NCBI GenBank assembly: GCA_028279595.1
Contig: JANQNK010000003.1
Span: forward strand, 25,367 to 89,366
DNA from: Thermoplasmatota archaeon
GTDB taxonomy: Archaea; Thermoplasmatota; JAKEGO01
DNA: 64,000 nucleotides
Direction of reading: 5' to 3'
This document shows, one piece after another, positions 19,576 to 63,799 of the stretch. The position numbers and the translations under genes were made by a program. Each line of letters begins with the position of its first letter. The stretch's first letter is position 1. The notes below the pieces were generated by a model. It had not been told where the DNA came from. It did no database searches and saw only the letters and a program-made list of their open reading frames with translations.

Positions 19576-19590
19576 TTCCTCAACCTCCTT

Positions 19591-36046: not shown

Positions 36047-36047
36047 A

Positions 36048-38858
36048 ATGGTCTTCGATGTCATAGCCAGGTTCATTGAGAAACACGCGAGGGAGATCCT
36101 CGTCATAGAGGTGCTCTTCACTGCGCTACTCGTTGTCAAGATCACTGAACCAGAGGCATTCCAGTTTGAGAGCGATCTCAACAAATTTCTGCCGGAGAAC
36201 GAAGAGACCCAGGCTCATGAACGTCTTCAGGACAGATTTGGGCATGATCCCTCTACTTACTTCGTTCAAGTCGAACCAAAGAACGGTGATGATGTAATTA
36301 CCGTTGATTCTGTCCGGGACCAATATCGAATCCAAGCTCTGATCGGCAGTGAAGATACCTCCTATATCAGGAATGGAAAGGTGACAGGCGTTCTCAGCTT
36401 CGCAACCCTCGTCGAGGCAATCCTTCAATTGAACAATTCGGAAGCTTCATTGCTCGAGGCCTCAGATGAAGATCTCGCGAACGCCATACATAATACATGT
36501 TCATTTCTGAACTCGAACGATCCAGACAATTATCGAAGCAAATGGAAACATCTCAATGCCCAATCGGAGGATAGCAACAACGCAGCGAAAACGATGTCTC
36601 CGGAGGACCTGATGGTCCTGAGGAACATACTCTTCTCAAAGGATTTCTATCATAGCGATAGCAACAGGATATCAGAGGCCTCCTCCACCTTGATACTGAT
36701 ATGGATCAATGGATCTCATGATCCCACTGAGCGGCGGGAGGTCGCCGTCTCAATAAGAGACGATCTCGATGGTCTCTCACTGCAGCACGTAACCATCAAA
36801 GAGACCGGCGCTGACCTCCTGGCTCATGATGTCGATGAAATGACAAAGATATCCAATATGATCCTTGGTGTCGGCATCCTGTTGATCATCCTTGTCGTCC
36901 TCTACCTGTCCTTCAGAAGCATATCCTACATGCTGCTTCCCGTCCTAACGATGCTCCTTGCTATCGTATGGACGATTGGAACCATGATACTCATCGATGT
37001 TACCTTCACCGCTATCGATGTCGCTGCGATCCCACTTATCGTGGGTTTAGGCGTCGATGACTCCGTCCATCTATCCAAACGTTATCAAGAGGAACTGAAG
37101 AAGAGCGGGAATCCAGCCGTAGCGCTGGTCACATCGATAGACAAGATCGGTACAGCAATATTCCTCACGTCACTCACGACCGCTCTCGCCTTCATGTCGA
37201 ATCTAGTATCCCCTGTAGGTCCGATCCGTGATTTCGGTCTGATCTGCGCTACTGGCATCGCATATGCATTCATCCTCACGATCACTTTCCAAGCTGCACT
37301 CAGATATGAATTGGACAGGTATGAGGCCAATGTCCTTGAGACACAGACCAATAAGGCCCCAAAGCTTGAGTCCGGGATGCACAAGTTCGGTGCTAAGGTC
37401 ATCGACAATCCGAAACCCGTCGTTGCGATCGTCCTATTGCTTACCGTCTCCTCGTTATGGGCATCAGGATATGTCAGAACCGATTTCCGGGTCGAGGATT
37501 TCCTCCCGGACGACTGGGAGACAGTGGAGACCTATCAGGACATTGAATCTTCGTATACAGCCGCAAGCCAGAGCCGGGTCTATTACGTCATCGAAGGTGA
37601 TGTCGAAACGGTGGATATGGCATGGACGCTCTTAAGACTCGAGAACGAAACGGAGAACGATAAACGGATCGTTAGCGTCGATATGGATGCGAATAATTCA
37701 CTCGATGACGTTTACCTGATGGAATCCATTCTTGACTACGTCGAACTTGCATTCTGGCTCAACAATTCAATGGCTGACGAATACAATTGGGAATATCGGG
37801 AGAACGATAGTACAGGTCAGACCATAATGTATCCCCAATCCGATTGCACGGACGAGGACATCTCGGACCTGTATGACTATCTTCGCAATAACGACACTTT
37901 CAAATATCTGACGAGAAAGGTTCTTCGAGGCCGTAATATCGGCAACGGTGAGTGGGAGTTCAGGATAACCATCGTTCGTATGTTCGTCGACGCCAGATCG
38001 GAGACCTCCAAGGCGAAGGATGTGGTCGATGACCTGGATCGCAATTTCGAGGTCATCAATTTCCCATCCGGTGTCAAGGTCACCAAGGCCGGCTACGTCA
38101 TATCCACAATTTCGACCATCGAAGCCATCCAGAGGAGCCAGATCGAGTCCACCATCATCTCGATCATCGTCTCCGCGCTCATCCTGATGTTCATCTACCG
38201 GTCGGCAACGGTCGGCATCCTCGCCGCCTTACCCGTAGCCATCTCCGCCTCATGGGTCCTGGGAACGATGGCATTCACGGAATACATGTATGCCAACGTC
38301 TCGACCACTTTCCCTGACATCAGTCTCAACGTTCTCACTGTCATGGTGACTGCGCTAACGATAGGTCTAGGCATAGACTACTCGATCCATATCATTCAAA
38401 GGTTCAAGGAGGAGCGCGAGGAGCAGGGCGCCGAGGTGAGGGAGGCGATGCTGACGTCGATCTCTCACAGCGGGACAGCGATCTTCATCTCGATGATAAC
38501 GACGGTCCTCGGATTCGTCGTTCTGCTGTTCTCGCCGATGCCGATAACCCAGCACTTCGGGCTCATAACATCCGTGACGATGATATTTGCCTTCTTCCTG
38601 TGCATATTCTTCCTGCCGATATTCCTGATGATATGGGCGAAGAGGGAGGAGGCAAGGATAGCCGAGGGAGGCGGCAAGGAGAGCTTCCTTTCCAGGTTGA
38701 AGCCGAAACCGAAGCCTGTCGAGATATCGATCGCAGGCGAGGTCGTCGAGGAGGAGACCACCGCTACCGGGGAGGACAGCGTCGTCGTATCGGAGGATGC
38801 CTCAGAAGTCGCTGAAGAAGAGGATGCTTCCGTCGTAGTTATCGTCGGCGAGGAATGA
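36048..38858 (+). CDS. RND-superfamily exporter (MMPL domain), second copy
   Basis: 936 aa. It has two 6-TM bundles, with GLGVDDSVHLSKRYQEE and GLGIDYSIHIIQRFKEE motifs. Its architecture is similar to 13087-15702. Confidence 0.8.
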   Translation: MVFDVIARFIEKHAREILVIEVLFTALLVVKITEPEAFQFESDLNKFLPENEETQAHERLQDRFGHDPSTYFVQVEPKNGDDVITVDSVRDQYRIQALIGSEDTSYIRNGKVTGVLSFATLVEAILQLNNSEASLLEASDEDLANAIHNTCSFLNSNDPDNYRSKWKHLNAQSEDSNNAAKTMSPEDLMVLRNILFSKDFYHSDSNRISEASSTLILIWINGSHDPTERREVAVSIRDDLDGLSLQHVTIKETGADLLAHDVDEMTKISNMILGVGILLIILVVLYLSFRSISYMLLPVLTMLLAIVWTIGTMILIDVTFTAIDVAAIPLIVGLGVDDSVHLSKRYQEELKKSGNPAVALVTSIDKIGTAIFLTSLTTALAFMSNLVSPVGPIRDFGLICATGIAYAFILTITFQAALRYELDRYEANVLETQTNKAPKLESGMHKFGAKVIDNPKPVVAIVLLLTVSSLWASGYVRTDFRVEDFLPDDWETVETYQDIESSYTAASQSRVYYVIEGDVETVDMAWTLLRLENETENDKRIVSVDMDANNSLDDVYLMESILDYVELAFWLNNSMADEYNWEYRENDSTGQTIMYPQSDCTDEDISDLYDYLRNNDTFKYLTRKVLRGRNIGNGEWEFRITIVRMFVDARSETSKAKDVVDDLDRNFEVINFPSGVKVTKAGYVISTISTIEAIQRSQIESTIISIIVSALILMFIYRSATVGILAALPVAISASWVLGTMAFTEYMYANVSTTFPDISLNVLTVMVTALTIGLGIDYSIHIIQRFKEEREEQGAEVREAMLTSISHSGTAIFISMITTVLGFVVLLFSPMPITQHFGLITSVTMIFAFFLCIFFLPIFLMIWAKREEARIAEGGGKESFLSRLKPKPKPVEISIAGEVVEEETTATGEDSVVVSEDASEVAEEEDASVVVIVGEE

Positions 38859-44138: not shown

Positions 44139-47100
44139 CTATTCCACCGTCCGGCGTCTCCTCCAGACGTAGGTGACAGCGACGGCGGCGACCACGACGC
44201 CCACGGTGATGTAGACGTAGTTGCCGTAGCCCTCTATGGCTCCTGGGTGATCGCTCGCACCGAAGGGCGTGTGCCATCCCACCTGGGGACCGCCTGACGC
44301 CTCCATTATGACAGGTTTCTCCCACGAGTACTCGGGGACGAACACGTAGAGGTCAGGGTCCCCGAAGTAGACCACGTTCTCGAAGATGTCCCACCACCAC
44401 TGGTTGGTGAGGTACTCGATGCCCACGTGGTGCATCCCCTCGGAGTAGGCCTCGCCCACGGAGTCGCCAAGCGCCACTTGGCGCATGAACATCTCGATGG
44501 CGAATGCAGAGTACCATGAGGTAAGCCATGGGTCGATGACCTGGAAGATAGAACCGTGGCGGACCATGGTCAGGTGAAGGTAGGTGTTCGCGATGAGGCA
44601 GGAACCGGCTATGAATCCGACGGAGTGGATGTTCCTCATGGCATCATCCATCATCGTCCCGGTGACGAGGTTGGTCTGTGTCACCTGCTGCCCGATGGCT
44701 ATGATGACGCCGTCATGGTCCTCGTACAGCTCCCCGGTGATCGGGTCGCTCCCGACGGCCGGGAAGACGTCGATGCCTGCCTGCTTGCTCATGGTGTAGG
44801 TGTCCGGCCCGAGCCTGTCCGTCGGGTTCTCCTCCGTACAGCCGTTGAGCTCGTAGCCGCGCCAAGGGTTGGGTTCCGGCTGCCCTGGAACGCCCCTGCT
44901 GGTGCCGTCGTCGTTCCAGAATCCCACAACCCCGGAGCCATCGCCGTAGCTCTGGTGGCCGCCGTGCATTACCTCGAACCACATGATGGAGCCCCTGTTG
45001 AGGTTCTCCATGGTCTCGTCGAAGGCGGTCGTGAAGACGGAGGAGTATCCAGCGTAATCGGCGTAATGGGGCACGACCTCGGATGTGGTCATGTCGGGAT
45101 AGTAGGAACCGGGCCCCCTCGAGCCGGGATAGTTTGTGTTGCCCTCGTCGATCGGATGGCCGGTCTCGTCCCAGTACGGCGTGACACCGCTCGCCCCTAC
45201 GTAATTCGTACCCCAGTAGAGCGAGGCGCGCTCGTTGAACCTGTGCTGGTAGGATACCCAGGACTGTGCGACAGGGAACTCCGCCTCGATCTCCATCTCG
45301 GGCTGGATGAGCGGTCCTGGACCATTCGACTTCGATCCGGTTATCCTAAGGGAATTGTGTTCATCGATGTCGGGGTTCACACCCGGGTTCGCGTAGATCA
45401 TGAGCGGGTACATCGCATTTCGCGAGACCCACATCGACTGGTCGACGGGGGAACCGAAGATGCGTCCCGGGTCAGCCGCGCCGACGAAGACGCGGTCCCA
45501 TGCCTGTCCGATATTGAGATGGCCGGCCACAGTGACGATGCTCTCCTTCTCGAGCCCGTCAAGCCCCATCTCCCCGAGGAACTCGTAGACCATCCTGCCC
45601 GTCAGGACCATGGAGCCGACGCCTGGAGGCAGCCTGTTCCTGTAGGCGTTCGCCCAGTAGACGTTGTTCCACGCGGCCGGTCCAGACAGTTCGGGATGCA
45701 CCTCCGTGACGAGCATCGGGGCTCCGTGGACGGCTGCGGTGTAGGCCGCGGGTCCGATGGAGGTGCCCTTCTCATGGACCCCCTCCGGCCCGTCGCTCCC
45801 GGGATACCAGTACTTCCAACCGCCGACCGTGGTGAACACGATGTCGTTCTCTCCCGACATCGTCCTGATCATGTTGTAGGCCTTCTTGTACGAGGTGATC
45901 TCGGTGACGTCCAGCGGAGTCTCGTCCCACTCCCGGTAATCGAACTTTCCCTTGACCCCCGAGTAGTCGCCGAGGTTGACCAGTGTCACCTTCTCGACGC
46001 CGAGCGTATCGAGCGCCTTCTTGGCGGATGACGGGACGCTTCCGGTCCCGACGTAGATGAGCGGCTGGTTCTTCATGGCCGCGATGACGGCGCCCTGTCC
46101 CGCCGACGCCAGCATGTGAGCGACGACAGGCTTCTCGGTGTGCTTCCATGAATAATCGATGGTGAAGTCGCCGCCTGCGCCCTCCCGCAGGGCCACGACA
46201 GCGATGCTGTAACTCCCAGTTCCGAGCTCGGGCAGCTCGAGGACCTTGGGGTTGGAGTCGTCGAGGATTGTATCTACCTGCTCCCCCGCGGGACCGAGGA
46301 GGATGAGGCCCATGTCCTCAGCTCCGTCGAGCTCGATCGTGATGTCGGATGGCGTGTACTTGAACTCGTCGGGGATATCCAAGACGGTCCCCGGGAAGAG
46401 ACGGACCCTGATGTTGTAGTAGGCGCGCGAGTCCTCGGTCGTCAGCGGCCACGGCTCATCCTCGATGGATTTCGTGGGCATGTAGGTGACCGTCGCCTCC
46501 CAGTCCCCCGGATTGAAGGCGTATGACTTGCAGATCTCGTGTGGAGGCTGGAACGGACGGTTGAGGTTCTCCTGGACGACGTTCCAGAACTCGGATGCGG
46601 CCACCTCGCCGATGGACATGTCATACAGCTGGAGGTCGAGGTCCTTCCCCCGCTCCGTCGCCGCCGACCCGTCCGGGCCGATGGTCTGACCGGCCCAGGT
46701 CCAGTTCAGGAGGGCCTCGACGTACGAGTATCCATCGGGAACCTCGAACTCGTGAACGTCGGGCTCCACCGGGTCCGGCAGTTTGCTCCCCTGGAAATTG
46801 TATTCCACCAGCGGTTCGCTGGCCAGTGATCCGCTCATCGTCCCTATGACAGCATCCATCGAGGACGACAGACCCGAGGCGATCGGTACGACCACCGCCT
46901 CCTTCGAGTAGCGCCAGTTGTGGAGCGCAAGGTCCGATGAGGTCTTGAACGGGCTCATCGCGTAGACGTTCGTGTCTTCCCCGGAGTAAGGGACGATGTT
47001 GCTCTCCCCGATTATGTCGACCTGGTCGAGGCTCCCCTCGTTGGCCGTCAGGTAGTCCTCCATGAAGTAGTGGATCCCCTGCGTGTCGTTGAGGGCCCTT

Positions 47101-47399
47101 GATTCGGTGTCCGTGCCCAGATGAGGTTCCTGGTAGTACAGGACGGGCGATGCATAGAGTGAATCCCCTCCCGCGAACACTGCTGTGGGGATCGAGGCAA
47201 GGTACAGGAGGTCGTCATCGTACGTGTATTCATCGTACTCCACTATCGTCGCCCTGGACATCGGTACGATCGGCAGCCACCCGCTGTTGGCCTCTCCTGC
47301 AATGGAGACGCGCTCCCTAGAAGGGACCTCCGGCTCTATGCATCCGGAGAACGCCATAAGGACCATCATTACGGAAAGTGCAGCTGCTAGACCTCTCAT
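44139..47399 (-). CDS. Large (about 1086 aa) secreted, C-terminally anchored protein; possible S-layer protein or cysteine-peptidase-like domain
   Basis: It has a signal peptide with a lipobox-like FSGC. The C-terminal TM plus RRRR (VGVVVAAVAVTYVWRRRRTVE) suggests an anchor. The candidate catalytic dyad MHGGH...AGSC gives only a weak suggestion of C25/C11-like proteases. The ATG at 47399 is preferred over GTG 47408. Confidence 0.4.
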   Translation of the reverse strand: MRGLAAALSVMMVLMAFSGCIEPEVPSRERVSIAGEANSGWLPIVPMSRATIVEYDEYTYDDDLLYLASIPTAVFAGGDSLYASPVLYYQEPHLGTDTESRALNDTQGIHYFMEDYLTANEGSLDQVDIIGESNIVPYSGEDTNVYAMSPFKTSSDLALHNWRYSKEAVVVPIASGLSSSMDAVIGTMSGSLASEPLVEYNFQGSKLPDPVEPDVHEFEVPDGYSYVEALLNWTWAGQTIGPDGSAATERGKDLDLQLYDMSIGEVAASEFWNVVQENLNRPFQPPHEICKSYAFNPGDWEATVTYMPTKSIEDEPWPLTTEDSRAYYNIRVRLFPGTVLDIPDEFKYTPSDITIELDGAEDMGLILLGPAGEQVDTILDDSNPKVLELPELGTGSYSIAVVALREGAGGDFTIDYSWKHTEKPVVAHMLASAGQGAVIAAMKNQPLIYVGTGSVPSSAKKALDTLGVEKVTLVNLGDYSGVKGKFDYREWDETPLDVTEITSYKKAYNMIRTMSGENDIVFTTVGGWKYWYPGSDGPEGVHEKGTSIGPAAYTAAVHGAPMLVTEVHPELSGPAAWNNVYWANAYRNRLPPGVGSMVLTGRMVYEFLGEMGLDGLEKESIVTVAGHLNIGQAWDRVFVGAADPGRIFGSPVDQSMWVSRNAMYPLMIYANPGVNPDIDEHNSLRITGSKSNGPGPLIQPEMEIEAEFPVAQSWVSYQHRFNERASLYWGTNYVGASGVTPYWDETGHPIDEGNTNYPGSRGPGSYYPDMTTSEVVPHYADYAGYSSVFTTAFDETMENLNRGSIMWFEVMHGGHQSYGDGSGVVGFWNDDGTSRGVPGQPEPNPWRGYELNGCTEENPTDRLGPDTYTMSKQAGIDVFPAVGSDPITGELYEDHDGVIIAIGQQVTQTNLVTGTMMDDAMRNIHSVGFIAGSCLIANTYLHLTMVRHGSIFQVIDPWLTSWYSAFAIEMFMRQVALGDSVGEAYSEGMHHVGIEYLTNQWWWDIFENVVYFGDPDLYVFVPEYSWEKPVIMEASGGPQVGWHTPFGASDHPGAIEGYGNYVYITVGVVVAAVAVTYVWRRRRTVE

Positions 47400-47554
47400 G
47401 CTATCCACGATTCTATGGCAACCACGTAAATAACGATTATGGTTAACTGGACCCAGTTAGGTTATTGATTTCCCGCAAAGGGTGGTGAGACACGCGCGCC
47501 GGATATCCGAGCGGCCGGCCATGCGTGTCAAATATCGAGGAATTGGTTGGCGTC

Positions 47555-47965
47555 CTAGCGTCTTCGAAGGCTTCCGGTGTAATGCCAGCGCTGGACCTTG
47601 AACATGTTCCTCCAGAAGGTCCCTTCGGTGATCCATGTCACGTAGTAGCACCAGAAGACGATGGTCATCGGAAGGTACACCAGGGACATCTTCCTTTCCT
47701 CCACGTCGGAATCGCCGCTGAAGAATATCCACCATATCCTGAAACCGATCAGGAATATCGGTATGGAAATGAGTATCCACCACCTGGCCATGGACGGGTC
47801 CAACCGCTTCTTTCCGATCGTGTAGTCGTCCTCGTCGCCCATTATACCGATCCTTCGCTGGTCGTAGGTCTCCTGGGTGTCCCCGTCGTAGTTGTCCCTC
47901 AACCTGGCGAGATAATCCTCGGTGGACTCGTCCACCCTGGTCCCCATCTCCTTCTTGATCCCCAC
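47555..47965 (-). CDS. Small membrane protein (hypothetical); tandem paralog of 48003-48449
   Basis: 136 aa with two TM helices. It shares the motif EDYLARLRDNYDGD (SDYIQSLKEKYSDE in the neighbor) with the adjacent ORF. Confidence 0.4.
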   Translation of the reverse strand: MGIKKEMGTRVDESTEDYLARLRDNYDGDTQETYDQRRIGIMGDEDDYTIGKKRLDPSMARWWILISIPIFLIGFRIWWIFFSGDSDVEERKMSLVYLPMTIVFWCYYVTWITEGTFWRNMFKVQRWHYTGSLRRR

Positions 47966-48002: not shown

Positions 48003-48449
48003 TCAGCGGCCGAAGACCTTTCGACGGTATCGCCTCTTCCCACCGCCTCCGTGCGACATGAAGTAGAATGCCGTCAGGACCACGGCCAACGCGAAGAGGA
48101 GCATCTGGACTATCGATATGAGCATGCCTTCCCAGCCGGCCATTATTATATGCACCGTCAGGACCAGGACCCAGAGGAATCCGAGGATCATCAGTGGAAG
48201 GTAGTCGCCGATCGATCCGCGGGGCGTCTCCACCCGCCAGTCCTGGTCCGATTCGAACGTTCCGAGGGACCTCTGCCTGGGGGCGCCTTTGTGCTCGTCA
48301 GAATATTTCTCCTTGAGGCTCTGGATGTAATCGGACGTGTCTTCGTGGTCCTCCTCCTGAACCTGACGCGCTCTGGGTATCGAGTGCTGCCTCCTTGCAG
48401 AACCGCGTCCTCCGGGGCGCGGTCGGTCCTGTCCGCGCCGTTCAGGCAT
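48003..48449 (-). CDS. Small membrane protein (hypothetical); tandem paralog
   Basis: 148 aa with two or three TM helices. The N-terminus is Arg-rich. Confidence 0.4.
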   Translation of the reverse strand: MPERRGQDRPRPGGRGSARRQHSIPRARQVQEEDHEDTSDYIQSLKEKYSDEHKGAPRQRSLGTFESDQDWRVETPRGSIGDYLPLMILGFLWVLVLTVHIIMAGWEGMLISIVQMLLFALAVVLTAFYFMSHGGGGKRRYRRKVFGR

Positions 48450-48453: not shown

Positions 48454-49398
48454 TCACTCCTTCAGGAACTCCATGATCTGCCGTCTGATGAGGTGGTAGG
48501 CGACGATGTTCCCGTACTCCTTCGAGAGCTCGTGTCCGCGCTTCATCAGGCTCTCGTGGAACCCGGAAGGCAGGAAGATGGGCCCGTGCTCGAGCTCCAG
48601 TCCGCCGAAGCCCGCTTCTATGACAATGCGTATGAGCTGGAGGATGGAGTCCTCGCCGTACCCCTTCGGGATCACGGTGATCTCGATGGAATCGTCCCCG
48701 TACTCGAGGGTGTGGATGACGTGCTCCCTGAGCAGGTGACGCTTCGGGAGTCTCGGCAGCAGTATCTCGATCGGCTTCGATCCAGCCTCGTCGACCAGCA
48801 CCTCGCGCTTTCCCCTCTTCATGTGCCAGAGCCTCACCTTGGCCTTCCTGTCCCTGTCCACCCTTATGGTGCTGTTCTCGGTGAGGTGACGGCCGGTGAC
48901 TATCCACCGTTCGTCGATGAGTATCTCTATCGGTATGGGTGAGGGCAACGGGTATACGCCTCCCGACCTCGCGGCCTCGACGACGTCCTGCGGTTTCAGG
49001 ACTATGCCGCTGTACTTACGCAGTGATACAGCGTCCTCGGAGACTGTGTGCGCGTACTCCTCGAGCTGATGCTGGACCCATGCTATGACCGGTGCGGATA
49101 TCCTCTCGGCTCCGGCTCGTTTCATTATCCGCCGGACGGGGGATCGGAAAAGGACGTCCTGCTCGGACCACTCGAACGACCTCGCCTTCGGCTTCAACCG
49201 GAGGGTGGCCTCCTCTACGTCCTTGGGTTTGATGATCTTCCGTCTGTCCTCGTGACAGATGCGCACTGCCTCCTCTCCGATGCGCAGAGCGTACTCCTCC
49301 AGGGCGCTCCTCATGTAGAGCGTCCCGGTCAACCTGACCCGGTCTGCCCCTCCCTGCTTCAGGAGTCGTCTGACCGGTGCTACGAAGAGTTCTGGCAT
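48454..49398 (-). CDS. Tandem histone-fold (doublet) protein fused to a ~180-aa C-terminal domain of unknown function
   Basis: Two HMf-like folds are present: ELFVAPVRRLLKQGGADRV...AVRICHEDRRKIIKPKDVEEA and VLFRSPVRRIMKRAGAERI...AVSLRKYSGIVLKPQDVVEAA. For comparison, HMfB has LPIAPIGRIIKDAGAERV...RKTIKAEDIELA. Confidence 0.7.
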   Translation of the reverse strand: MPELFVAPVRRLLKQGGADRVRLTGTLYMRSALEEYALRIGEEAVRICHEDRRKIIKPKDVEEATLRLKPKARSFEWSEQDVLFRSPVRRIMKRAGAERISAPVIAWVQHQLEEYAHTVSEDAVSLRKYSGIVLKPQDVVEAARSGGVYPLPSPIPIEILIDERWIVTGRHLTENSTIRVDRDRKAKVRLWHMKRGKREVLVDEAGSKPIEILLPRLPKRHLLREHVIHTLEYGDDSIEITVIPKGYGEDSILQLIRIVIEAGFGGLELEHGPIFLPSGFHESLMKRGHELSKEYGNIVAYHLIRRQIMEFLKE

Positions 49399-49444
49399 CA
49401 CTACCGAACCCCTTATTATTGGTAGGGTAGTTAACGATTATGGT

Positions 49445-49918
49445 ATGCAGGCCAGTGGGTCGAACGATGTGGTCGTTTTGGACGCCTCCTCCCTCTCCGC
49501 GGGATGGCAGCCGGAGCCCGGTTCCCGGGTGGTCACTCCGTCGAGGGTCTGGCGCGAGATGGAGGAGCTCGGAGCCCCTCCCTTCGAGGTCGGGATCGCC
49601 GAGCCGAGCCCGGGATCCCTTGATTCGGTGAGGGCCGCTTCTGCCGGTACGGGCGACGACATTCGACTCTCCAACGCCGACTTTGACCTACTCGCCCTCG
49701 CATCGGACATGGGTGCCCTTCTGGTCACCGAGGATTTCTCTGTCCAGAACCTCGCAGAGACCCTTTCGATCCCGTGGACGAGCGTCGGAAGACCCATTTC
49801 CGAGGTCCGGAAATGGCGGTACCGTTGCAAGGGATGCCTCAAGGTGTTCGACGAGAGATATGACGACTGCCCGGTCTGCGGGTCTGAGCTCCGCAGCTAC
49901 GGGGGAAAGCGTCGATGA
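49445..49918 (+). CDS. nob1: Nob1-like PIN-domain endonuclease with a C-terminal zinc ribbon
   Basis: It has a PIN domain (VVLDASSL...D...LVTEDFSVQN) and a CKGC...CPVCG Zn ribbon. Confidence 0.7.
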   Translation: MQASGSNDVVVLDASSLSAGWQPEPGSRVVTPSRVWREMEELGAPPFEVGIAEPSPGSLDSVRAASAGTGDDIRLSNADFDLLALASDMGALLVTEDFSVQNLAETLSIPWTSVGRPISEVRKWRYRCKGCLKVFDERYDDCPVCGSELRSYGGKRR

Positions 49919-50310
49919 AGGACCTCCCGTTCGGGATCGTGTACGCCGCTCAAGCGGAGTTCCTTTTAGGAATTATCTTCCTAGGAGGCGGTGGGATCCT
50001 GTTCTTCAATGCGGACAATCTGACCGGGACACCGACACTTCTGGGAGCCGTAGGAAGCGGGACCCTGGCAATGATCGGACTAGCACTCGTTTCCATAGGT
50101 CTGCTTGACATACTCGCAGCATTCTTCCTTACCAGATTGAGAGCACTAGGGTTCGGCGGTGTGATGTTCTGTTGCGTGACCTCGGCAAGTATATCTGCGT
50201 ACCTCCTGACAATCGGATTCACGATGGGAGCGATGAATCTGTTCCTGAACATCGGAATACCATTGTATCTGTTGAGATGGGATGTCCGACAGGAATACAT
50301 ACCGAGATAG
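49915..50310 (+). CDS. Small integral membrane protein (hypothetical)
   Basis: 131 aa with four predicted TM helices. Its start is coupled to nob1 by an ATGA overlap. Confidence 0.35.
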   Translation: MKDLPFGIVYAAQAEFLLGIIFLGGGGILFFNADNLTGTPTLLGAVGSGTLAMIGLALVSIGLLDILAAFFLTRLRALGFGGVMFCCVTSASISAYLLTIGFTMGAMNLFLNIGIPLYLLRWDVRQEYIPR

Positions 50311-55734: not shown

Positions 55735-56616
55735 TTGGCAGAGAAGAGAAGCAGGGCAGCCGCCCGTCAGTTGCGCGATCGATGGCGAATGAAGGCGTGG
55801 TACAATCTCACCGCGCCAGACATGTTCAACAGGGCATCCCTAGGCGAGACCCTGTCGGACGAACCGGAGAAGCTCGTGGGAAGGAAGACAGTCGTATCGC
55901 ACCAGGACCTCTCTGGGGACTATTCGAAGGCGCACGTCAAGCTGGCCTTCGAGGTCTATGCCATCAAGGGGAACGATGCCCTTACACGTTTCATAGGTCA
56001 CGATTTCAGGAAGGATTACGTCATCCGTCTGGCCAGGAGGCGCCGGACGAAGATCGACGGGGTCTTCGACCTCAAGACCAAGGACGGCTACGTCGTCCGG
56101 GTAAAACCCCTCGCAATAGCCGAGAAGCGGATCAAGACCACCCAGGAGAAGGGGATACGCGAGGCAATGGGGGTCATCGTCGACGAGTGGGCCCAGAAGA
56201 TGACGTTCAGCGAGTTCGTCAAGGCCATGCTCTCCGGCGAGGTCGCGGACGCTGCCACGAAGCAGTGCAGGACCATATTCCCGGTCAGGAAGCTCGAGAT
56301 CAAGAAGTCCCAGGTAATTTCCTTCCCGGAGATCATCGAGAGGATCGTCGATGAGCCCGAGGAGGACGAGGAAGCTGAGGACGCGGTCGAGGAGGAGGTC
56401 GTCGAGGAGGAGCCCACTCCCGAGGAGATCGGGTCCCGCGAGGACGTGCTAGAGCTGTTCACCAGCCTCAAGGGCATAGGCCCCATGAAGGCCGAGGCGC
56501 TCTACGACGCCGGCTTCGAGAGCCTCGACAAGCTCAAGGAGGCCACCACCGACGACATAGCCAACGTCGAGGGTTTCTCGCCGAGCCTGGCCAAGAAGGT
56601 CATCGAACAGCTCTGA
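55735..56616 (+). CDS. rps3ae: 30S ribosomal protein S3Ae (S1e) fused to a C-terminal acidic linker and an (HhH)2 domain
   Basis: The first ~200 aa match the S3Ae core (RWRMKAWYNLTAPDMF...). They are followed by an EEDEEAEDAVEEEVVEEE linker and LKGIGPMKAEALYDAGFESLDKL...VEGFSPSLAKKVIEQL HhH motifs. Confidence 0.8.
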   Translation: MAEKRSRAAARQLRDRWRMKAWYNLTAPDMFNRASLGETLSDEPEKLVGRKTVVSHQDLSGDYSKAHVKLAFEVYAIKGNDALTRFIGHDFRKDYVIRLARRRRTKIDGVFDLKTKDGYVVRVKPLAIAEKRIKTTQEKGIREAMGVIVDEWAQKMTFSEFVKAMLSGEVADAATKQCRTIFPVRKLEIKKSQVISFPEIIERIVDEPEEDEEAEDAVEEEVVEEEPTPEEIGSREDVLELFTSLKGIGPMKAEALYDAGFESLDKLKEATTDDIANVEGFSPSLAKKVIEQL

Positions 56617-58513: not shown

Positions 58514-61500
58514 CTACGCCGCAAAGATGACGTCGAGCCCCATCCTGTAGGCCCACATCTCGATGGTCCTCTCGACCTCCGCCCATTCGCCCTCGAACTC
58601 CTCGATCGTCAGTCTGGACACCTGCTCGCGGGCCTTGAACGCGGCCTTCATCTCCGCCCCGTGGAAGACGACGTAGCAGTTCGTCATGCCGAACTTCCTC
58701 TTGATGTCGTCGTAGAGGTACTGGAAGAGCTGGTCCTTCGGCGAGAGGACGAACCGCCTCTCGATCTCCTGTTCCCTCACCGATCCGACGTCCTCCGCCA
58801 GCATCCAGTGGACGACCTCGCTCCCCTCGACGAGCAGCCCCTTTACGAGGAATCCCTCGTCCTCGAGCTCGCGAAGTATACGGCGCAGCTCGAGCATGCC
58901 CATCCTGTGCTTGGTGTACGACGCCAGTCTCTCGGCCGAGAACATGCCGAAGTTGCCGAAGATGCGCCTCATCACCCACTTCCTGGCCTCCGGCGGCTCG
59001 ATCTCCGGCTCCGGGACGAGCGTGTAGCGGCCCCTGGCGTCCTTGACGATGTACAATCCCTCGTAGAGCTTCTTGAGGTTGGACGTGAAGTCCTCCGGCG
59101 TCATCGTGGTCTTCTTCTGCAACTTCGTCCTGCTGATGCCGAACTCGGGCACCCGCATGTAGATGTGCTTCATCATCGGCGTGAGCTGGGCGTCCTTCGC
59201 GGCCCTGTACTTCGGAAGGTCCTCGTGATTTGTGAGCGTCAGGTAGTCGGGAATGAGCAGCGCCTTCGGCAGGTCGCTGGAGCGGTGATAGCCGTCGAGC
59301 GATACCGGACGCCCCTGCAGGCGTAGCGCCAGTTCCATCTCGGACCTGATCCCGCCCATGGTGGCCAGGACCTCCTTGATGGTGCCGAATCGTTTGTTCT
59401 CGGGTATGTGCTGCCTGTCCAGGACGTACGAGACGATGTCCCGCTCCGAGAACGACTCGGACGTGCCGACGCCCGAGACCAGGTTCCTTCCGACCCGTGA
59501 GAACCCCTTCTCTATGAACATCATGTATGTGTCGGGGTCCATCTCCTCCACAGGTACCGAATTGACGGCCTTGATCCTGACGACGTCCATGTAGTAGTTT
59601 CGGTAGTATTCCCACGTCCTCTCCAGCGCGTCCAGGAGGCCAGGGAGCTTCTCCGGCGGCACCAGGATGTCCCTTACGTCCACGGCGCCGCTCATGGGCC
59701 ACATGTGGATGGCCCCGATGACCTCGCTCCCCTCCGTGACCACCGAGTACCAGCCGTCGCCGAACCGCGAGAGCACCTCGAACCTGTGCCTGAAGGTGAA
59801 TGCGTCCCTGAGGGAAAGGGCCCTTATACCTTCGGGAGTGCCGGCCTTTCCAAGCCTGTCCAGGTATTCAGTGAGCACGTACATCTCCATGTCGTGCTCT
59901 GCCGAGATTATGCGCGTGACGGCGTCCTCCTCCTCGAGCCTGTCAAGTGCGTCGAGCACCTCCTGGTAGGGGAGTTTCAGGAAACCCCGGATACCCACCA
60001 GGGGCGCGACCCCGAACACCTTGAGCATGGTCCTCACCGTGTCGACGATCGGCTCCTCCGGCCATTCCTCGACATCGAGGGCGTAGTACCTGTTTATCGT
60101 GCTCCAGTAGTTGCCGCTGGGCGGCTTGCGATGAATGTAGAGATTGTAATCGAGCCTCGTGATGATGTCCATGACCTCCCATCTCTCGAGGTCGAGATAC
60201 TCCGCGACCTCGGAACGTGAGGACCCGGGATTCTCGTTTATAATCCTGAGGACATCCATCTCCACCTCGTTCAGCTCCTCCCGACGATAGGTGCCGATGT
60301 AGATGGGGGCGTCCTCGGCAAGGACGTAGGACACCTGGCCGCCCACGAACCGCCCCTGGATTATCCTGCCCTCGGCGAGGAGCTCTATCCATCTGTCGAA
60401 ATCAAAGTCGCGCACCCGCAGGGCGATCGAGCGCACTCCGGTCGCGAAACGGTATCTCTCGAAGTACTCCTCGATGGTGTCGACCTCTGTCAACATGATC
60501 TCAGTGACGAAGTCGGAGATCGCCTGGGCACCGAAGACAGGTTCCTCGCCCCCCCGCTCGATGGATATCAGGTCCCTGGTGAGGATGTACTGGCGCGGGG
60601 CCTTGGTCCCGATGAAGAAACCGGACCTGACGAGACCGGAGCGCTCCAGGTCCTCGAGGGTCGTGTCGACCAACTGTTCCTCGAGCGAGAGCGCGAAGGA
60701 GATCTCCTCAAGGACGGAGGGTCCGTGGAACTCCAGGTATTTCGTGCAAAGGTCCTGTACGGCTCCCTCGACCTGCCTCACGGCAATGTCCGATGGGGCG
60801 TAGACCACGCTCCCATCCTCGGTGAACCCCCTCGTGACCAGATAGGCCTCCTCGAGGAGCTTGATGTCGTCGCTGGACGCCTTTCCCTTTTCGAACTTCT
60901 CGAGCAGCTTGTCACCGTCGATCCTCTTCGCGTAGACGGAAGCGTAGAGTTCCAGCCTGTCGGTCGGGACCCACTTGAGCCCCTTGATCCAGGCGGATGA
61001 GATCAGCCCATCGTCGACGAGCTCCGCAGCCCACTCCAGGACCTCCTCCCTCGGGAGTTCGGTGAAGTCCATGATGTTCTCCCCCCGCTCCCTGAAGACG
61101 GTCATCGCTCCGAAGGCCTTCAGGGCTGCGAGTATGTCCTCCTTGTCCACGACGGCCGGCCTCTTCGAGCGGTAGTGCACGTCGACGTTCTTCTCCGGCA
61201 GCGCCGCCTCCCCTTCACCCAGTACCTTCGAGAGCACCTTCCGGTGCAGCTCCCTGAGCAGGGCCGACCTGTCCTCCATGAGGACTATGTCGGATTTACC
61301 CGCAAGGACCACCGAATGGCCGAACGGGGACGGTGAATCCGTGTAGCCGAGCACGTCGAACGATATCTCGCCCGACTCGATCCCCTCGAGCACCTCGGCG
61401 GCGTTGTCCAGGTCCATCACGTCGTGCAGGATCTCGTTGTACGTCTCGTCCAGGACCGGAAAGTTGTCAGCCTTGTGAAGCGCCTCCAGGAGCCTCTGGG

Positions 61501-63799
61501 AGCGGAGCTGCTGCTTCTTCACGGAGATCTCGTGGCCCTTGAAGTTGCGGAGGATCATCATGGACCGCGCGCCGGTGTGCCTGAACCTCTGCTTGAACAG
61601 CTCCGTCTGCCTGATCGCCTTCCTCAGGACGGTCCCCAGGTCCTTTGACGAGACCATTCCCCTCAGGTCGTCGAGCTCGATCCTCTTCGGAAGTGTGAGC
61701 ATGAAGTTGTCGTCCGTTAGCGAGACCTTGACGTTCTTCTTGTACTGCCTCGAGAGCTCGAAGGCGTAGGCACGGGACAGCGCGTCGTTCACCCTCCTCC
61801 CGAAAGGGAAGTGGAAGACGACGTTCACCCTGCCCTTCTCGTCCTCGAATCCCTCCACGAGCACCCTGCTGTTGGTCGGGACCGCCTCGACGGACCCGAT
61901 CTGCTGTCTGAAGTAGGATATCACGGTCTTCGCGGCGCCCAGGTCCGTGTGGTATTCCTCCATGAGGAGACCTTCCATCTCCTCGTCCGGGGTATCGGCC
62001 AGTATCATCTCCGTTAGCCTGTTCCGGAACTTCCCGACCTCGACCGAGAGGTCGAAGGTCCTGGGGAGCATCTCGCCGGACCAGGAGGGAACCGTCGGCT
62101 TCTTTCCGTGTGCGTCCTTGACGTAGACCCTGTTCCCGCGGACGCTGGTGAGCTCGTAGGTCTTGCCCCCGAGCAGGAATATATCCCCCGTCCTGAGCCG
62201 TTCGACGAACTTCTCGGCGAGGTCCCCCAGGGGCATCCCGTACTCTAGGAACACCCTGTATGAGATCTCCTGCGGGATTGTCCCGATGTTCATGAAGTAG
62301 ATCATCCTGGTGCCCCTGCGGGCTCCGAAGACCCTCTCGTCCGGGTCGTACCAGATCTTGCCGTAAATGCCGCTGTCCTCGTAGGAGTGGCGGCCGGCGG
62401 CGAAGTTGAGGACGTCGATGAACCTGTCACGGTCGATGTCCCGGTACGGGTAGGAACGACGGACCAGTTCGAGAGCCTCGTCGACCTCCCATTTCCTCTC
62501 GAGGGACATTCCGATGAGCGCCTGGGCGAGGACGTCGAGGGACCCGAAGAGGAAGTTGGTGCGGTCGATGGTGTTGTCCATCGCGCACTTCGTCAGGACC
62601 ATCGTCTCCACGAGGTCGTTCTCCTCGAAGACAACGATGCGCCCGACCGAGGTCTCGTGAAGGGCGTGGCCGGCGCGTCCCACGCGCTGGATCCCCTTGG
62701 CGATGCTCTTCGGGGAGCCGATCTGGATGACGAGGTCGACGTAGCCTATGTCGATGCCGAGCTCCAGGGATGTGGATGTGACGACCGCCTTCATCTCGCC
62801 CGCCTTGAGCCGCTCCTCCACCTCGAGACGGATCTCCTTAGAGAGCGAGCCGTGGTGGGCCGAGATGTCCTCCACACCACGCTCCTTCAACTTGTGGACG
62901 ACGGCCTCTGTGCCCGACCTGGTGTTGGTGAAGATGAGCGTGGTACGGTTCTGGTCGATGAGGTCCTTCAGGACGTCGTACATCTTCTCGTTCACGATCT
63001 CGAACGGAAGGGCCGTCATGTCTGCGACCGGCGTCATCACCGCGAGGTCCATGCTCTTCTGCGCTCCGATCTCGACGATGTTGACATCGCGCATCTCGCC
63101 GTTGTCGAATCCCACGAGATACGCGCCGATCTCCTCGATGGGCGACTGCGTCGCCGACAGTCCGACGCGGACCACGTCCTCCGACGACATGTCCGCTAGA
63201 CGTTCTACCGAAAGTGCGAGGGAGACACCCCTCTTCGAGGACGAGATCTCGTGGATCTCGTCGACGATCATGTACTTGACCCCCTTGAGGCGTTCGACGA
63301 ACTTCGTGGTCGAGAGCACGAGCGAGAGCGTCTCCGGCGTGGTGATCAGGATATGCGGGGGCTTCCTGACCATCTTCTGCCGCATGTAGCTGGTCGTGTC
63401 TCCTGTCCTCACGGCCACCCTGACAGGGGATATGTCGTCGAAACCCGCCTTCTCCAGGTACTCGTTGATTTCCGCGAGCGGGGTGTTGAGGTTCCTCTCT
63501 ATGTCGTTGGCCAGCGCCTTCAACGGAGAAACGTACACGCAGTAGATCTTGTCCTCCAGAGTTCCTTCCTTCGACTTGATGATCAGTTCGTTAAGAATGG
63601 AGAGGAACGCTGTTAGGGTCTTTCCGGAACCTGTCGGAGCCGCCACTAGGACGTTCTTCCCCTCGTGGATGTACGGGATCGCATAGGCCTGCGGGGGCGA
63701 GATGTCCTCGAAACGCTCCGTGAACCACTCCCCAACGGTGTCATCGAGCAGAGAGAGGACCTCGTCCTTCGAATGAGGTCTATCTATCCTATGTATCAT
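58514..63799 (-). CDS. lhr: Lhr-family ATP-dependent DEAD/DEAH-box helicase, unusually long (1761 aa)
   Basis: The N-terminal helicase core has APTGSGKT (Walker A), DEIH (motif II) and QRVGRAGH (motif VI). These are followed by Lhr-type WH/beta-barrel domains and a ~700-aa C-terminal extension. Confidence 0.85.
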   Translation of the reverse strand: MIHRIDRPHSKDEVLSLLDDTVGEWFTERFEDISPPQAYAIPYIHEGKNVLVAAPTGSGKTLTAFLSILNELIIKSKEGTLEDKIYCVYVSPLKALANDIERNLNTPLAEINEYLEKAGFDDISPVRVAVRTGDTTSYMRQKMVRKPPHILITTPETLSLVLSTTKFVERLKGVKYMIVDEIHEISSSKRGVSLALSVERLADMSSEDVVRVGLSATQSPIEEIGAYLVGFDNGEMRDVNIVEIGAQKSMDLAVMTPVADMTALPFEIVNEKMYDVLKDLIDQNRTTLIFTNTRSGTEAVVHKLKERGVEDISAHHGSLSKEIRLEVEERLKAGEMKAVVTSTSLELGIDIGYVDLVIQIGSPKSIAKGIQRVGRAGHALHETSVGRIVVFEENDLVETMVLTKCAMDNTIDRTNFLFGSLDVLAQALIGMSLERKWEVDEALELVRRSYPYRDIDRDRFIDVLNFAAGRHSYEDSGIYGKIWYDPDERVFGARRGTRMIYFMNIGTIPQEISYRVFLEYGMPLGDLAEKFVERLRTGDIFLLGGKTYELTSVRGNRVYVKDAHGKKPTVPSWSGEMLPRTFDLSVEVGKFRNRLTEMILADTPDEEMEGLLMEEYHTDLGAAKTVISYFRQQIGSVEAVPTNSRVLVEGFEDEKGRVNVVFHFPFGRRVNDALSRAYAFELSRQYKKNVKVSLTDDNFMLTLPKRIELDDLRGMVSSKDLGTVLRKAIRQTELFKQRFRHTGARSMMILRNFKGHEISVKKQQLRSQRLLEALHKADNFPVLDETYNEILHDVMDLDNAAEVLEGIESGEISFDVLGYTDSPSPFGHSVVLAGKSDIVLMEDRSALLRELHRKVLSKVLGEGEAALPEKNVDVHYRSKRPAVVDKEDILAALKAFGAMTVFRERGENIMDFTELPREEVLEWAAELVDDGLISSAWIKGLKWVPTDRLELYASVYAKRIDGDKLLEKFEKGKASSDDIKLLEEAYLVTRGFTEDGSVVYAPSDIAVRQVEGAVQDLCTKYLEFHGPSVLEEISFALSLEEQLVDTTLEDLERSGLVRSGFFIGTKAPRQYILTRDLISIERGGEEPVFGAQAISDFVTEIMLTEVDTIEEYFERYRFATGVRSIALRVRDFDFDRWIELLAEGRIIQGRFVGGQVSYVLAEDAPIYIGTYRREELNEVEMDVLRIINENPGSSRSEVAEYLDLERWEVMDIITRLDYNLYIHRKPPSGNYWSTINRYYALDVEEWPEEPIVDTVRTMLKVFGVAPLVGIRGFLKLPYQEVLDALDRLEEEDAVTRIISAEHDMEMYVLTEYLDRLGKAGTPEGIRALSLRDAFTFRHRFEVLSRFGDGWYSVVTEGSEVIGAIHMWPMSGAVDVRDILVPPEKLPGLLDALERTWEYYRNYYMDVVRIKAVNSVPVEEMDPDTYMMFIEKGFSRVGRNLVSGVGTSESFSERDIVSYVLDRQHIPENKRFGTIKEVLATMGGIRSEMELALRLQGRPVSLDGYHRSSDLPKALLIPDYLTLTNHEDLPKYRAAKDAQLTPMMKHIYMRVPEFGISRTKLQKKTTMTPEDFTSNLKKLYEGLYIVKDARGRYTLVPEPEIEPPEARKWVMRRIFGNFGMFSAERLASYTKHRMGMLELRRILRELEDEGFLVKGLLVEGSEVVHWMLAEDVGSVREQEIERRFVLSPKDQLFQYLYDDIKRKFGMTNCYVVFHGAEMKAAFKAREQVSRLTIEEFEGEWAEVERTIEMWAYRMGLDVIFAA

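What the first reader, a model, noticed from the sequence alone, without database searches (positions are those of the whole stretch)
48454..49398. Histone-fold doublet fused to a ~180-aa C-terminal domain of unknown function
There are two consecutive HMf-type histone folds. The first retains the RK-I/T DNA-contact motif (DRRKIIKPKD). The second has it replaced (YSGIVLKPQD). They are followed by a basic/hydrophobic domain with no recognisable motif (PLPSPIPIEILIDERWIVTGRHLTENSTIRVDRDRKAK...). Doublet histones are rare. A doublet carrying an extra globular domain could be a specialised chromatin or transcription factor. An unusual ~32-nt upstream motif is shared with the neighboring large secreted-protein gene.
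Basis: partly seen in the sequence, partly recalled or inferred. Interest (0 to 1): 0.65.

Follow-up and report, generated by a model that had tools for sequence, protein, structure and literature searches.

The report
Histone doublet fused to unknown domain
This archaeal gene joins two DNA-packaging histone folds to a conserved extra domain with no known relative, in a very rare protein family that I did not find in two recent surveys of prokaryotic histones.

Summary
Window 48454-49398 (minus strand) encodes a 314-aa protein with two tandem HMf-type histone folds (Pfam PF00808 E=1.6e-16, NCBIfam archaea_histone E=5.4e-22, two stretches each). A 168-aa C-terminal region matches no Pfam, NCBIfam, PHROG, PADLOC or PDB sequence family.

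AlphaFold2 models that region confidently (pLDDT 90.5) as an Ig-like beta-sandwich (aa 157-243) plus a ~70-aa helical module (aa 249-313). Foldseek finds only generic beta-sandwiches.

The architecture is very rare: 4 clusters at 50% identity among 1.84 billion representatives. The named ones are Thermoplasmata or Thermoplasmatota MAGs. All domains are under strong purifying selection (dN/dS 0.03-0.10).

The helical module also exists as a stand-alone 74-80-aa protein, always just upstream of rpS8e-SRP19.

Both folds keep the DNA-anchoring Arg10, Gly16 and Arg19 equivalents. They have lost the His49 and Leu62 tetramer contacts.

My reading: a DNA-binding pseudo-dimer that cannot build hypernucleosomes and uses the added domain for partner binding, oligomerisation or DNA bridging. 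That step is inferred.

The "32-nt" shared upstream motif is really 18 nt. Its 12-nt core is specific and is conserved upstream of both genes in three of the four genomes where both upstream regions could be read.

The parts
48454..49398 (-). Gene for the 314-aa histone-doublet fusion protein (stop codon 48454-48456)
   Evidence: ORF list and sequence. Orthologs at 26-91% identity share the same architecture. dN/dS is 0.064 against L003 at dS 0.93.
49195..49398 (-). Histone fold 1 (aa 1-68): alpha1-L1-alpha2-L2-alpha3. Keeps the R10, K13, G16, R19, R52, K53, K56 and D59 equivalents. T54 is Ile, H49 is Glu, L62 is Glu.
   Evidence: Pfam and NCBIfam stretch 6-64. Alignment to HMfB. Residue table.
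49153..49194 (-). Linker of about 14 aa between the two folds (aa 69-82), poorly conserved
   Evidence: Domain identities: 7% or less to P0005, P0006 and P0007. Alignment A4.
48961..49152 (-). Histone fold 2 (aa 83-146). Keeps the R10, K13, G16, R19, K56 and D59 equivalents. L2 is one residue shorter with R52 lost, K53/T54 are Ile/Val, H49 is Tyr, L62 is Glu.
   Evidence: Second HMM stretch. Residue table.
48670..48960 (-). Predicted Ig-like beta-sandwich subdomain (aa 147-243, nine strands). It is the least conserved part of the family.
   Evidence: AF2 model mca22fd23b894: overall pLDDT 90.5, 86-95 per 10-residue block past the first ten. Foldseek PDB and BFVD hits are only generic beta-sandwiches at TMq 0.33 or less. 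Identity is 22-26% to distant members.
48457..48669 (-). Helical module (aa 244-314) with invariant P-x-G-Y, G272 and Y295. Homologous to stand-alone 74-80-aa archaeal proteins.
   Evidence: Profile search hits P0008, P0009 and P0012. Alignments A5 and A8. Not a degenerate histone fold: hhalign probability 0.4%.
49427..49444 (-). Upstream block A (ACCATAATCGTTAACTAC; core ACCAYAANCNTT at 49433-49444), at -46 to -29 from the ATG. Probable BRE/TATA-region element. It abuts the start codon (49445) of the divergent Nob1-like gene.
   Evidence: Conserved upstream of orthologs in L001, L003, L008 and L009.
49399..49420 (-). Upstream block B (AATAATAAGGGGTTCGGTAGTG): an AT-rich box plus a GGTG-type Shine-Dalgarno-like stretch. 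Conserved as TATAAGGnTTCGGTG in orthologs.
   Evidence: Alignment A7 and raw sequences. The functional assignment is inferred.
47426..47443 (-). Second copy of block A (ACCATAATCGTTATTTAC), at -44 to -27 from the ATG (47399) of the 1089-aa surface-protein gene
   Evidence: The same motif lies upstream of the orthologous gene in L003 and L008. It sits at the upstream edge of the conserved promoter island.
48003..48449 (-). 148-aa small protein (basic N-terminus plus 2 predicted TM helices). It starts 4 nt after the histone gene's stop, so it is probably co-transcribed.
   Evidence: Orthologs in L003 (61%) and L001 (32%).
47555..47965 (-). 136-aa paralogous small membrane protein
49445..49918 (+). 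Divergently transcribed Nob1-like gene (PIN_6 plus Zn ribbon), 46 nt from the histone gene. This pairing is conserved in 5 lineages.
   Evidence: Pfam and NCBIfam. Synteny.
49915..50310 (+). 131-aa membrane protein that follows the Nob1-like gene in all 5 lineages
44139..47408 (-). 1089-aa protein with a lipobox signal peptide (FSGC) and a C-terminal TM anchor, with no family match. It carries the shared upstream motif.
   Evidence: Orthologs in L001, L003 and L008.

Best explanation
The gene encodes a DNA-binding histone pseudo-dimer: two covalently linked HMf-type folds that pack against each other. It binds and bends about 30 bp of DNA through the conserved alpha1/L1 arginines.

It cannot polymerise into tetramers or hypernucleosomes. 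Both folds have lost the His49 and Leu62 four-helix-bundle contacts, and the C-terminal domain starts directly after alpha3 of fold 2.

The appended domain is an Ig-like beta-sandwich packed against a conserved helical module. It supplies a different interaction surface, for self-association (DNA bridging) or for binding a partner. The protein would then act as a discrete architectural or bridging chromatin protein rather than a wrapping one.

Shown: the two folds, the residue pattern, the fold prediction of the added domain, its rarity, its selection and its synteny.

Inferred: DNA binding, the lack of polymerisation, and that the C-terminal domain mediates protein-protein contacts.
For: - Two significant histone-fold matches.
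- The equivalents of HMfB R10, G16 and R19 are invariant in both folds of all 7 family members, down to 26% identity. Henneman et al. 2018 (PMC6136690) name R10 and R19 as the minor-groove anchors.
- The doublet is basic in 5 of 6 lineages, pI 9.5-10.1.
- The tetramer-interface criteria of the same review (L46, H49, D59, L62) are not met. H49 is E or Q in fold 1 of six of the seven members (Ala in P0007) and Y or H in fold 2. L62 is E in both folds of six of the seven (Gly in fold 1 of P0007). The review scores H49D plus E62 in Nanosalina HB as unable to tetramerise.
- The C-terminal domain folds confidently: pLDDT 90.5, pTM 0.84, and 84-90 across the five models.
- It is under purifying selection as strong as a typical structural domain: dN/dS 0.075-0.097 at dS about 0.9.
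- The helical module is the best-conserved part after fold 1.
- There are precedents. Several prokaryotic histone categories use a C-terminal domain to oligomerise and bridge DNA: Methanococcales MJ1647, coiled-coil histones and phage histones (PMC11390915).
- In the most divergent member the gene directly follows gyrB-gyrA.
Against: - No experiment or multimer model supports self-association.
- One member (P0006) is acidic overall (pI 5.1), with a near-neutral doublet.
- Fold 2's L2 DNA contact is degenerate, so one of the three DNA-contact sites of a histone dimer is weakened.
- Tyr (or His in P0006 and P0007) at the H49-equivalent position of fold 2, together with the retained Asp59, could still allow some dimer-dimer contact.
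- The full-length AF2 model was poor (pLDDT 56), so the relative placement of the domains is unknown.
- The conserved neighbours (a Nob1-like gene here, rpS8e-SRP19 for the free module) point to ribosome or RNA biology rather than chromatin.
Confidence: 0.45

Rival explanations
1. Gene-specific regulator. The protein, alone or through its C-terminal domain, recognises the conserved ACCAYAANCNTT element. It would autoregulate its own operon together with the large surface-protein gene, and possibly the divergent Nob1-like gene. That would make it a histone-fold transcription factor in the sense of NF-Y.
For: - The 12-nt core occurs only twice in 64 kb (0.08 expected), upstream of exactly these two genes and at the same distance from the ATG.
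- The same two genes carry it in L003 and in the distant L008 (39% and 55% protein identity).
- It stays upstream of the histone gene in L009, where the intergenic spacer is 322 nt instead of about 46 nt.
- Divergent arrangement with a neighbour is typical of autoregulated DNA-binding proteins (general knowledge).
Against: - The motif lies at the upstream edge of the conserved promoter island, -46 to -29. That is where BRE/TATA would sit, so it may be a promoter variant shared by strongly expressed genes rather than an operator.
- Histone folds bind DNA without base specificity. In NF-Y the specificity comes from NF-YA, which is absent here.
- L001 lacks the motif upstream of its surface-protein gene.
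- Its 9-nt core ATAATCGTT also occurs upstream of two unrelated genes.
Confidence: 0.2
2. Not a DNA-binding protein. The doublet is a protein or RNA scaffold, as in TAF-like or other non-DNA-binding histone folds. It would work in ribosome or RNA biogenesis, with the helical module as the functional core.
For: - The divergent pairing with a Nob1-like PIN endonuclease is conserved in 5 lineages, 39-91% identity.
- The free helical module is always encoded 0-18 nt upstream of rpS8e-SRP19, in three different 50%-identity clusters.
- Several prokaryotic histone categories are thought not to bind DNA.
Against: - The residues most conserved in the histone part are exactly the DNA-anchoring ones: R10, R19 and G16 in both folds.
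- The doublet is strongly basic in most members.
- Synteny among fairly close relatives is weak evidence. P0007 sits next to gyrase instead.
Confidence: 0.15
3. An ordinary nucleosomal or hypernucleosome-forming histone, possibly the main chromatin protein of this lineage, that merely carries a decorative domain.
For: - Best sequence matches are nucleosomal histones HPhA and HMfB.
- G16 is retained, and L46 and D59 are largely retained.
- No other histone-fold ORF exists in the 64-kb window.
- Most Thermoplasmatota lack histones (PMC13260811), so this could be the sole one.
Against: - H49 and L62 are replaced in both folds.
- A 168-aa globular domain directly after alpha3 of fold 2 should clash with the stacking of a hypernucleosome (inference).
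- The rest of the genome could not be checked for other histones.
Confidence: 0.1
4. An annotation or assembly artefact: two genes fused by a frameshift, or a mobile or viral gene.
For: None found.
Against: - The same continuous architecture appears in independent assemblies from NCBI, JGI, ENA and Logan.
- dN/dS is low in every domain.
- There are no relatives in viral contigs.
- GC content is native, 0.607 against about 0.60 for most of the window.
- The neighbours are housekeeping genes.
Confidence: 0.01

Closest known systems
Archaeal nucleosomal histones (HMfA/HMfB, HPhA; Pfam PF00808)
   Same: - Each half is a bona fide HMf-type histone fold (E about 1e-7 to PDB chains).
- The proline, R10, K13, G16, R19 and D59 equivalents are retained.
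   Different: - Two folds sit in one chain, followed by a 168-aa extra domain.
- H49 and L62 are replaced in both folds.
- Fold 2 lacks the R52-D59 clamp and the RKT loop.
Doublet histones: M. kandleri HMk (PDB 1F1E) and Halobacteria 'Halo double' / acidic doublets (cluster 3, median 143 aa, pI 4.7)
   Same: - Tandem histone folds in one polypeptide, expected to form an intramolecular pseudo-dimer.
- The two halves are asymmetric.
   Different: - Those are acidic, about 143-154 aa, and carry no further domain.
- This doublet is basic (pI 9.7), from Thermoplasmatota, and carries a C-terminal beta-sandwich plus helical domain.
Poseidoniia double histones (Schwab 2024), also called acidic quadruplets (2026 survey). 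Also from Thermoplasmatota.
   Same: A double histone followed by an 'unknown C-terminal domain', in the same phylum.
   Different: - Their C-terminal part is interpreted as a degenerate second pair of histone folds, and the proteins are acidic (pI about 5.2, about 262 aa).
- Here the C-terminal part is predicted to be beta-rich plus a helical module, with no profile similarity to histone folds (hhalign 0.4%).
- The exhaustive profile search with the C-terminal domain found no such proteins.
DNA-bridging histones with C-terminal oligomerisation domains (Methanococcales MJ1647, PDB 8BDK; coiled-coil histones such as HMfC; phage histones)
   Same: The design principle is shared: a histone-fold DNA-binding unit plus a C-terminal domain that replaces the four-helix-bundle mode of assembly.
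   Different: - Those are single folds that dimerise first, and their C-terminal parts are helical or coiled-coil.
- Here the dimer is covalent, and the C-terminal part is an Ig-like sandwich plus a helical module.
- Oligomerisation is untested here.
NF-YB/HAP3-type histone-fold transcription factors (the name NCBI gives ortholog P0003)
   Same: They share the Pfam family PF00808.
   Different: - There is no NF-YC-type partner and no NF-YA.
- There is no evidence of CCAAT-type specificity.
- The name merely reflects the Pfam model.

Membership tests
Archaeal HMf-type (nucleosomal) histone | Significant match to the histone-fold HMM (PF00808 / NF043032) | tested here: met
   PF00808 scores 60.7 bits against a cutoff of 21.4. 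NF043032 scores 78 bits against a cutoff of 50. Each has two stretches.
Archaeal HMf-type (nucleosomal) histone | DNA minor-groove anchors R10 and R19 (plus K13) | tested here: met
   R10 and R19 are invariant in both folds of all 7 members. K13 is K or R in nearly all. The criteria come from PMC6136690.
Archaeal HMf-type (nucleosomal) histone | L2 R52-x-T54 with the R52-D59 salt bridge (RxTxxxD) | tested here: inconclusive
   Fold 1 has R-K-I-I-K-P-K-D: R52 and D59 are present and T54 is Ile. Fold 2 has R52 deleted and K53/T54 as Ile/Val, with D59 kept.
Archaeal HMf-type (nucleosomal) histone | Dimer-dimer four-helix-bundle residues L46, H49, D59, L62 (tetramer or hypernucleosome capability) | tested here: not met
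   Fold 1 has I, E, D, E. Fold 2 has L, Y, D, E. This is a sequence criterion only; assembly itself was not modelled.
Archaeal HMf-type (nucleosomal) histone | Small residue G16 at the stacking interface | tested here: met
   Gly is present in both folds of all members.
Doublet (pseudo-dimeric) histones (HMk 1F1E, Halobacteria doublets) | Two histone folds in one chain joined by a short linker | tested here: met
   Folds span aa 1-68 and 83-146. 1F1E is matched with two stretches.
Doublet (pseudo-dimeric) histones (HMk 1F1E, Halobacteria doublets) | About 140-155 aa, acidic, no further domain (cluster 3 of PMC13260811) | tested here: not met
   The protein is 314 aa, the doublet pI is 9.66, and there is an extra 168-aa domain.
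Doublet (pseudo-dimeric) histones (HMk 1F1E, Halobacteria doublets) | Intramolecular pseudo-dimer packing of the two folds | tested here: inconclusive
   The full-length AF2 model gives the right helices, but pLDDT is only 31-57 in the histone half.
Poseidoniia double / acidic quadruplet histones | C-terminal half is a degenerate second pair of histone folds | tested here: not met
   The C-terminal half is predicted as nine beta-strands plus a helical module. The helical module gives hhalign probability 0.4% against the histone-fold profile. No Poseidoniia sequence was compared directly.
DNA-bridging histones (MJ1647, coiled-coil, phage) | C-terminal domain that oligomerises so that two DNA-binding faces point apart | not testable with these tools
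No multimer modelling was available.
NF-Y (NFYB/HAP3) transcription factor | Heterotrimer with NF-YC and NF-YA conferring CCAAT specificity | not tested
   There is no partner gene in the neighbourhood. The NCBI name for P0003 stems from the Pfam family name.

The most novel reading that the evidence does not exclude
A histone pseudo-dimer has been converted into a dedicated regulator or organiser of a small regulon. Through its unique Ig-like/helical domain it would recognise, or be recruited to, the conserved ACCAYAANCNTT promoter element. That element is shared by its own operon (histone gene plus small membrane proteins) and by the major lipoprotein-type surface-protein gene. If so, this is a prokaryotic histone-fold protein with locus-specific action, built on a domain unknown elsewhere.
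Probability: 0.12. Interest if true: 0.75.

Novelty: new variant of a known kind. Interest (0 to 1): 0.5.

Why it matters
Surveys of prokaryotic histones show that fold-plus-extra-domain architectures mark functional departures from DNA wrapping, such as bridging, membrane anchoring or loss of DNA binding.

This protein would add a further category with three features:
- a basic covalent doublet, in a phylum where histones are mostly absent;
- loss of the tetramerisation contacts;
- a conserved two-part domain (Ig-like sandwich plus helical module) with no relative among solved structures by Foldseek, and no family assignment.

The helical module also defines an uncharacterised small archaeal protein encoded with rpS8e-SRP19. 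Understanding either protein would therefore inform the other.

The family is tiny and found only in uncultured archaea, so the impact is on the catalogue and evolution of histone architectures rather than on a general mechanism.

Tried and rejected
Structure and fold searches:
- Full-length AF2 with 5 sequences gave a poor model (pLDDT 56). It was not used beyond secondary structure.
- Profile searches of the C-terminal domain and of the helical module against PDB sequences returned only de novo designed proteins. I dismissed these as compositional.

Sequence searches:
- The word-index search with the doublet alone returned only one partial ortholog, P0018. The nearest singlet or doublet histone relatives therefore remain unknown.
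- Scans of metagenome contigs and viral contigs with the C-terminal profile found nothing.
- PHROGs and PADLOC had no hits for the protein or its neighbours.

Ideas tested and rejected:
- A 'Rosetta stone' idea: that the 96-aa gene next to the free helical module corresponds to the beta-sandwich. It is a hydrophobic membrane protein.
- The helical module as a degenerate histone fold: hhalign probability 0.4%.

Other checks with nothing found:
- Rfam and a terminator/promoter scan of the locus.
- Literature searches for a description of this architecture.

Not possible: checking whether the genome has other histones.

Full report
**1. What is there**

The minus strand of window 48454-49398 carries an ORF of 314 codons. 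An in-frame GTG lies one codon upstream, but orthologs conserve only the ATG at 49398.

The protein matches the archaeal histone models. Pfam CBFD_NFYB_HMF gives E=1.6e-16 and NCBIfam archaea_histone gives E=5.4e-22, each with two separate stretches. Against PDB sequences the best hits are HPhA, HMfB and HMfA (E about 3e-7 to 1e-6). The Methanopyrus doublet 1F1E is hit with two stretches.

A local HMM places the two folds at aa 1-68 and 83-146, and finds no other histone-fold ORF in the 64-kb window.

**2. State of the two folds**

I aligned the folds to HMfB and tabulated seven family members.
- The equivalents of R10, G16 and R19 are invariant in both folds of every member. K13 and K56 are nearly so.
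- Fold 1 keeps R52-K53 and D59, with Ile or Val at T54.
- Fold 2 has an L2 loop one residue shorter. It lacks R52 and has Ile/Val in place of K53/T54.

Henneman et al. 2018 (PMC6136690) list R10 and R19 as the minor-groove anchors. They list L46, H49, D59 and L62 as the dimer-dimer interface needed for tetramers and hypernucleosomes. Here H49 is Glu in fold 1 (Glu or Gln in six of the seven members, Ala in P0007) and Tyr in fold 2 (Tyr or His across the family). L62 is Glu in both folds of six of the seven members, and Gly in fold 1 of P0007. The review rates a comparable pattern, H49D plus E62 in Nanosalina HB, as unable to tetramerise.

The doublet is basic. Its pI is 9.66, and 9.5-10.1 in five of six lineages. 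P0006 is the exception.

**3. The C-terminal 168 residues**

No Pfam, NCBIfam, PHROG or PADLOC family matches. No PDB sequence matches either as a single query or as a profile.

I modelled the region with AlphaFold2 using an 11-sequence alignment. The result is confident: pLDDT 90.5, pTM 0.84, and 84-90 for all five models. It has two parts:
- nine beta-strands (aa 157-243);
- a helical module (aa 249-313).

Foldseek against the PDB gives no hit at E<=1e-3, and TM-scores are at most 0.31. The top hits are Ig-like or lipid-binding beta-sandwiches: the AglB C-terminal domain, the MalQ N-domain, Unc119/RhoGDI and TCR V domains. BFVD gives one borderline hit (E=9.5e-4, rmsd 23.9 A, uncharacterised phage protein) and otherwise the same picture.

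**4. Distribution**

The word-index search of 5.8 billion clusters found four relatives at 67-91% identity. One is annotated 'NFYB/HAP3 family transcription factor subunit [Thermoplasmata archaeon]'. Later searches added a partial one.

An exhaustive HMMER profile search with the C-terminal domain covered 1.84 billion representatives. It found only four 50%-identity clusters with the full architecture: P0002, P0005, P0006 and P0007. It also found a handful of stand-alone 74-80-aa proteins that match only the helical module.

The GTDB species genomes hold two loci, a Thermoplasmata MAG and a Thermoplasmatota MAG. Metagenome-contig and viral-contig scans found nothing more.

Between the window and L003, dS is about 0.9 while dN/dS is 0.03-0.10 in every domain. 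The whole fusion is therefore a functional, constrained gene and not an artefact. The helical module is better conserved than the sandwich: 55/45/31% against 26/26/22% identity to P0005, P0006 and P0007.

**5. Context**

The window is ordinary archaeal chromosome. It carries RNA polymerase A' and A'', HypF, Lhr, S3Ae, a methyltransferase and a ThiI-like protein. The locus has native GC content.

Five lineages (window, L001, L003, L008, L009; 39-91% identity) share one arrangement. The gene is divergently paired with a Nob1-like PIN/Zn-ribbon gene, which is followed by a 131-aa membrane protein. In four of the five the intergenic spacer is only 42-49 nt.

In the closer relatives the histone gene is followed by one or two small two-TM proteins, after a 4-nt gap in the window. 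A 1089-aa lipobox surface protein comes next.

The most divergent member, P0007, instead follows gyrB-gyrA.

The free helical-module proteins always lie 0-18 nt upstream of rpS8e-SRP19, in low-GC archaeal contigs.

**6. The upstream motif**

Both copies are on the minus strand. The 3' end of each copy lies 26-28 nt upstream of the respective ATG.

The degenerate core ACCAYAANCNTT occurs exactly twice in the window, against 0.08 expected, and no shuffle reached two. It is present upstream of the histone gene in L001, L003, L008 and L009. It is present upstream of the surface-protein gene in L003 and L008, but not in L001.

Upstream of the surface-protein gene it marks the sharp 5' boundary of the conserved promoter island. 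Beyond it the window and L003 do not align.

A second block, TATAAGGnTTCGGTG, is conserved between the motif and the histone ATG.

I read block A as a BRE/TATA-region element, and block B as an AT-rich melting region plus a Shine-Dalgarno-like GGTG. This is inference; no TSS data exist. An operator for a specific regulator, possibly the protein itself, cannot be excluded.

**7. Interpretation**

The most economical reading has three parts:
- a DNA-binding histone pseudo-dimer that retains the alpha1/L1 anchors;
- loss of the canonical polymerisation interface;
- a new interaction domain.

This is analogous in design, though not in sequence or fold, to the DNA-bridging histones with C-terminal oligomerisation domains described by Schwab et al. 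2024.

The rivals are a locus-specific regulator, a non-DNA scaffold tied to ribosome or RNA biology, and an ordinary wrapping histone with a decoration. They are weighed in the structured fields above.

**8. Comparison and novelty**

The protein does not fit any of the 17 categories in Supplementary Table 2 of Schwab et al. 2024. It also fits none of the five clusters of the 2026 archaeal survey, where doublets are acidic, about 143 aa and mostly halobacterial, and where most Thermoplasmatota lack histones.

The nearest in concept is the 'Poseidoniia double'. Its C-terminal half is considered a degenerate double histone fold and is acidic; the present one is neither.

Full-text searches found no description of this architecture.

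I classify it as a new variant of a known kind: prokaryotic histone variants with accessory domains. It is of moderate interest. It is real, conserved, very rare and structurally unassigned, but it comes from uncultured organisms and its function is untested.

Noticed in passing
L004 3449-3673, L005 2907-3131, L016 87-320, L018 108-350: An uncharacterised family of 74-80-aa archaeal proteins with a P-x-G-Y...Y-G...Y motif and no Pfam or NCBIfam match. It is homologous to the C-terminal helical module of the fusion. These genes always lie 0-18 nt upstream of rpS8e-SRP19, in low-GC (30-35%) contigs.
   Followed up: partly
L010 3060-9173 (also L011, L012): The most divergent family member (P0007, 390 aa) has an N-terminal extension and a Cys-rich insertion in the sandwich. 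It lies directly downstream of gyrB-gyrA on the same strand.
   Followed up: partly
window 44139-47408 (-): A 1089-aa protein with a lipobox signal peptide (…FSGC) and a C-terminal TM anchor plus an RRRR tail. It has no match in any family library. It is conserved in L001, L003 and L008 and carries the same upstream motif as the histone gene. It is possibly the major cell-surface protein.
   Followed up: partly
window 48003-48449 (-) and 47555-47965 (-): Two paralogous small proteins (148 and 136 aa) with a charged N-terminal region and two predicted TM helices. They are probably co-transcribed with the histone gene. Orthologs exist in L003, and there is a single 173-aa relative in L001.
   Followed up: partly
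window 55735-56616 (+): Ribosomal protein S3Ae (aa 10-198) appears fused to a C-terminal helix-hairpin-helix HHH_5 domain (aa 240-293). This is an unusual architecture for S3Ae. The start codon (TTG) was not verified.
   Followed up: no
window 58514-63799 (-): A 1761-aa Lhr-type helicase (DEAD, Helicase_C, WH_Lhr, DEAD_assoc) with an AlkZ-like DNA-glycosylase region at aa 1174-1338.
   Followed up: no
window 10000-22000 and 36000-38000: Stretches of lower GC (0.46-0.53 against about 0.60). Each holds an MMPL-family transporter (13087-15702 and 36048-38858). The first also holds LtrA and NosD/beta-helix proteins, with a 2028-aa giant adjoining it at 21406-27492. These may be acquired islands.
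   Followed up: no
window 9536-9544, 11395-11403, 47432-47440, 49433-49441: The exact 9-mer ATAATCGTT occurs four times in the window. All four are in intergenic regions upstream of genes. By my base-composition estimate about 0.2 exact copies are expected.
   Followed up: partly
L009 2476-2797: In the P0005 lineage the spacer between the Nob1-like gene and the histone gene is 322 nt instead of 42-49 nt. Both conserved upstream blocks nonetheless stay next to the histone gene. An ATG also remains at the position where the Nob1-like gene starts in the window, but no ORF runs from it into that gene.
   Followed up: partly
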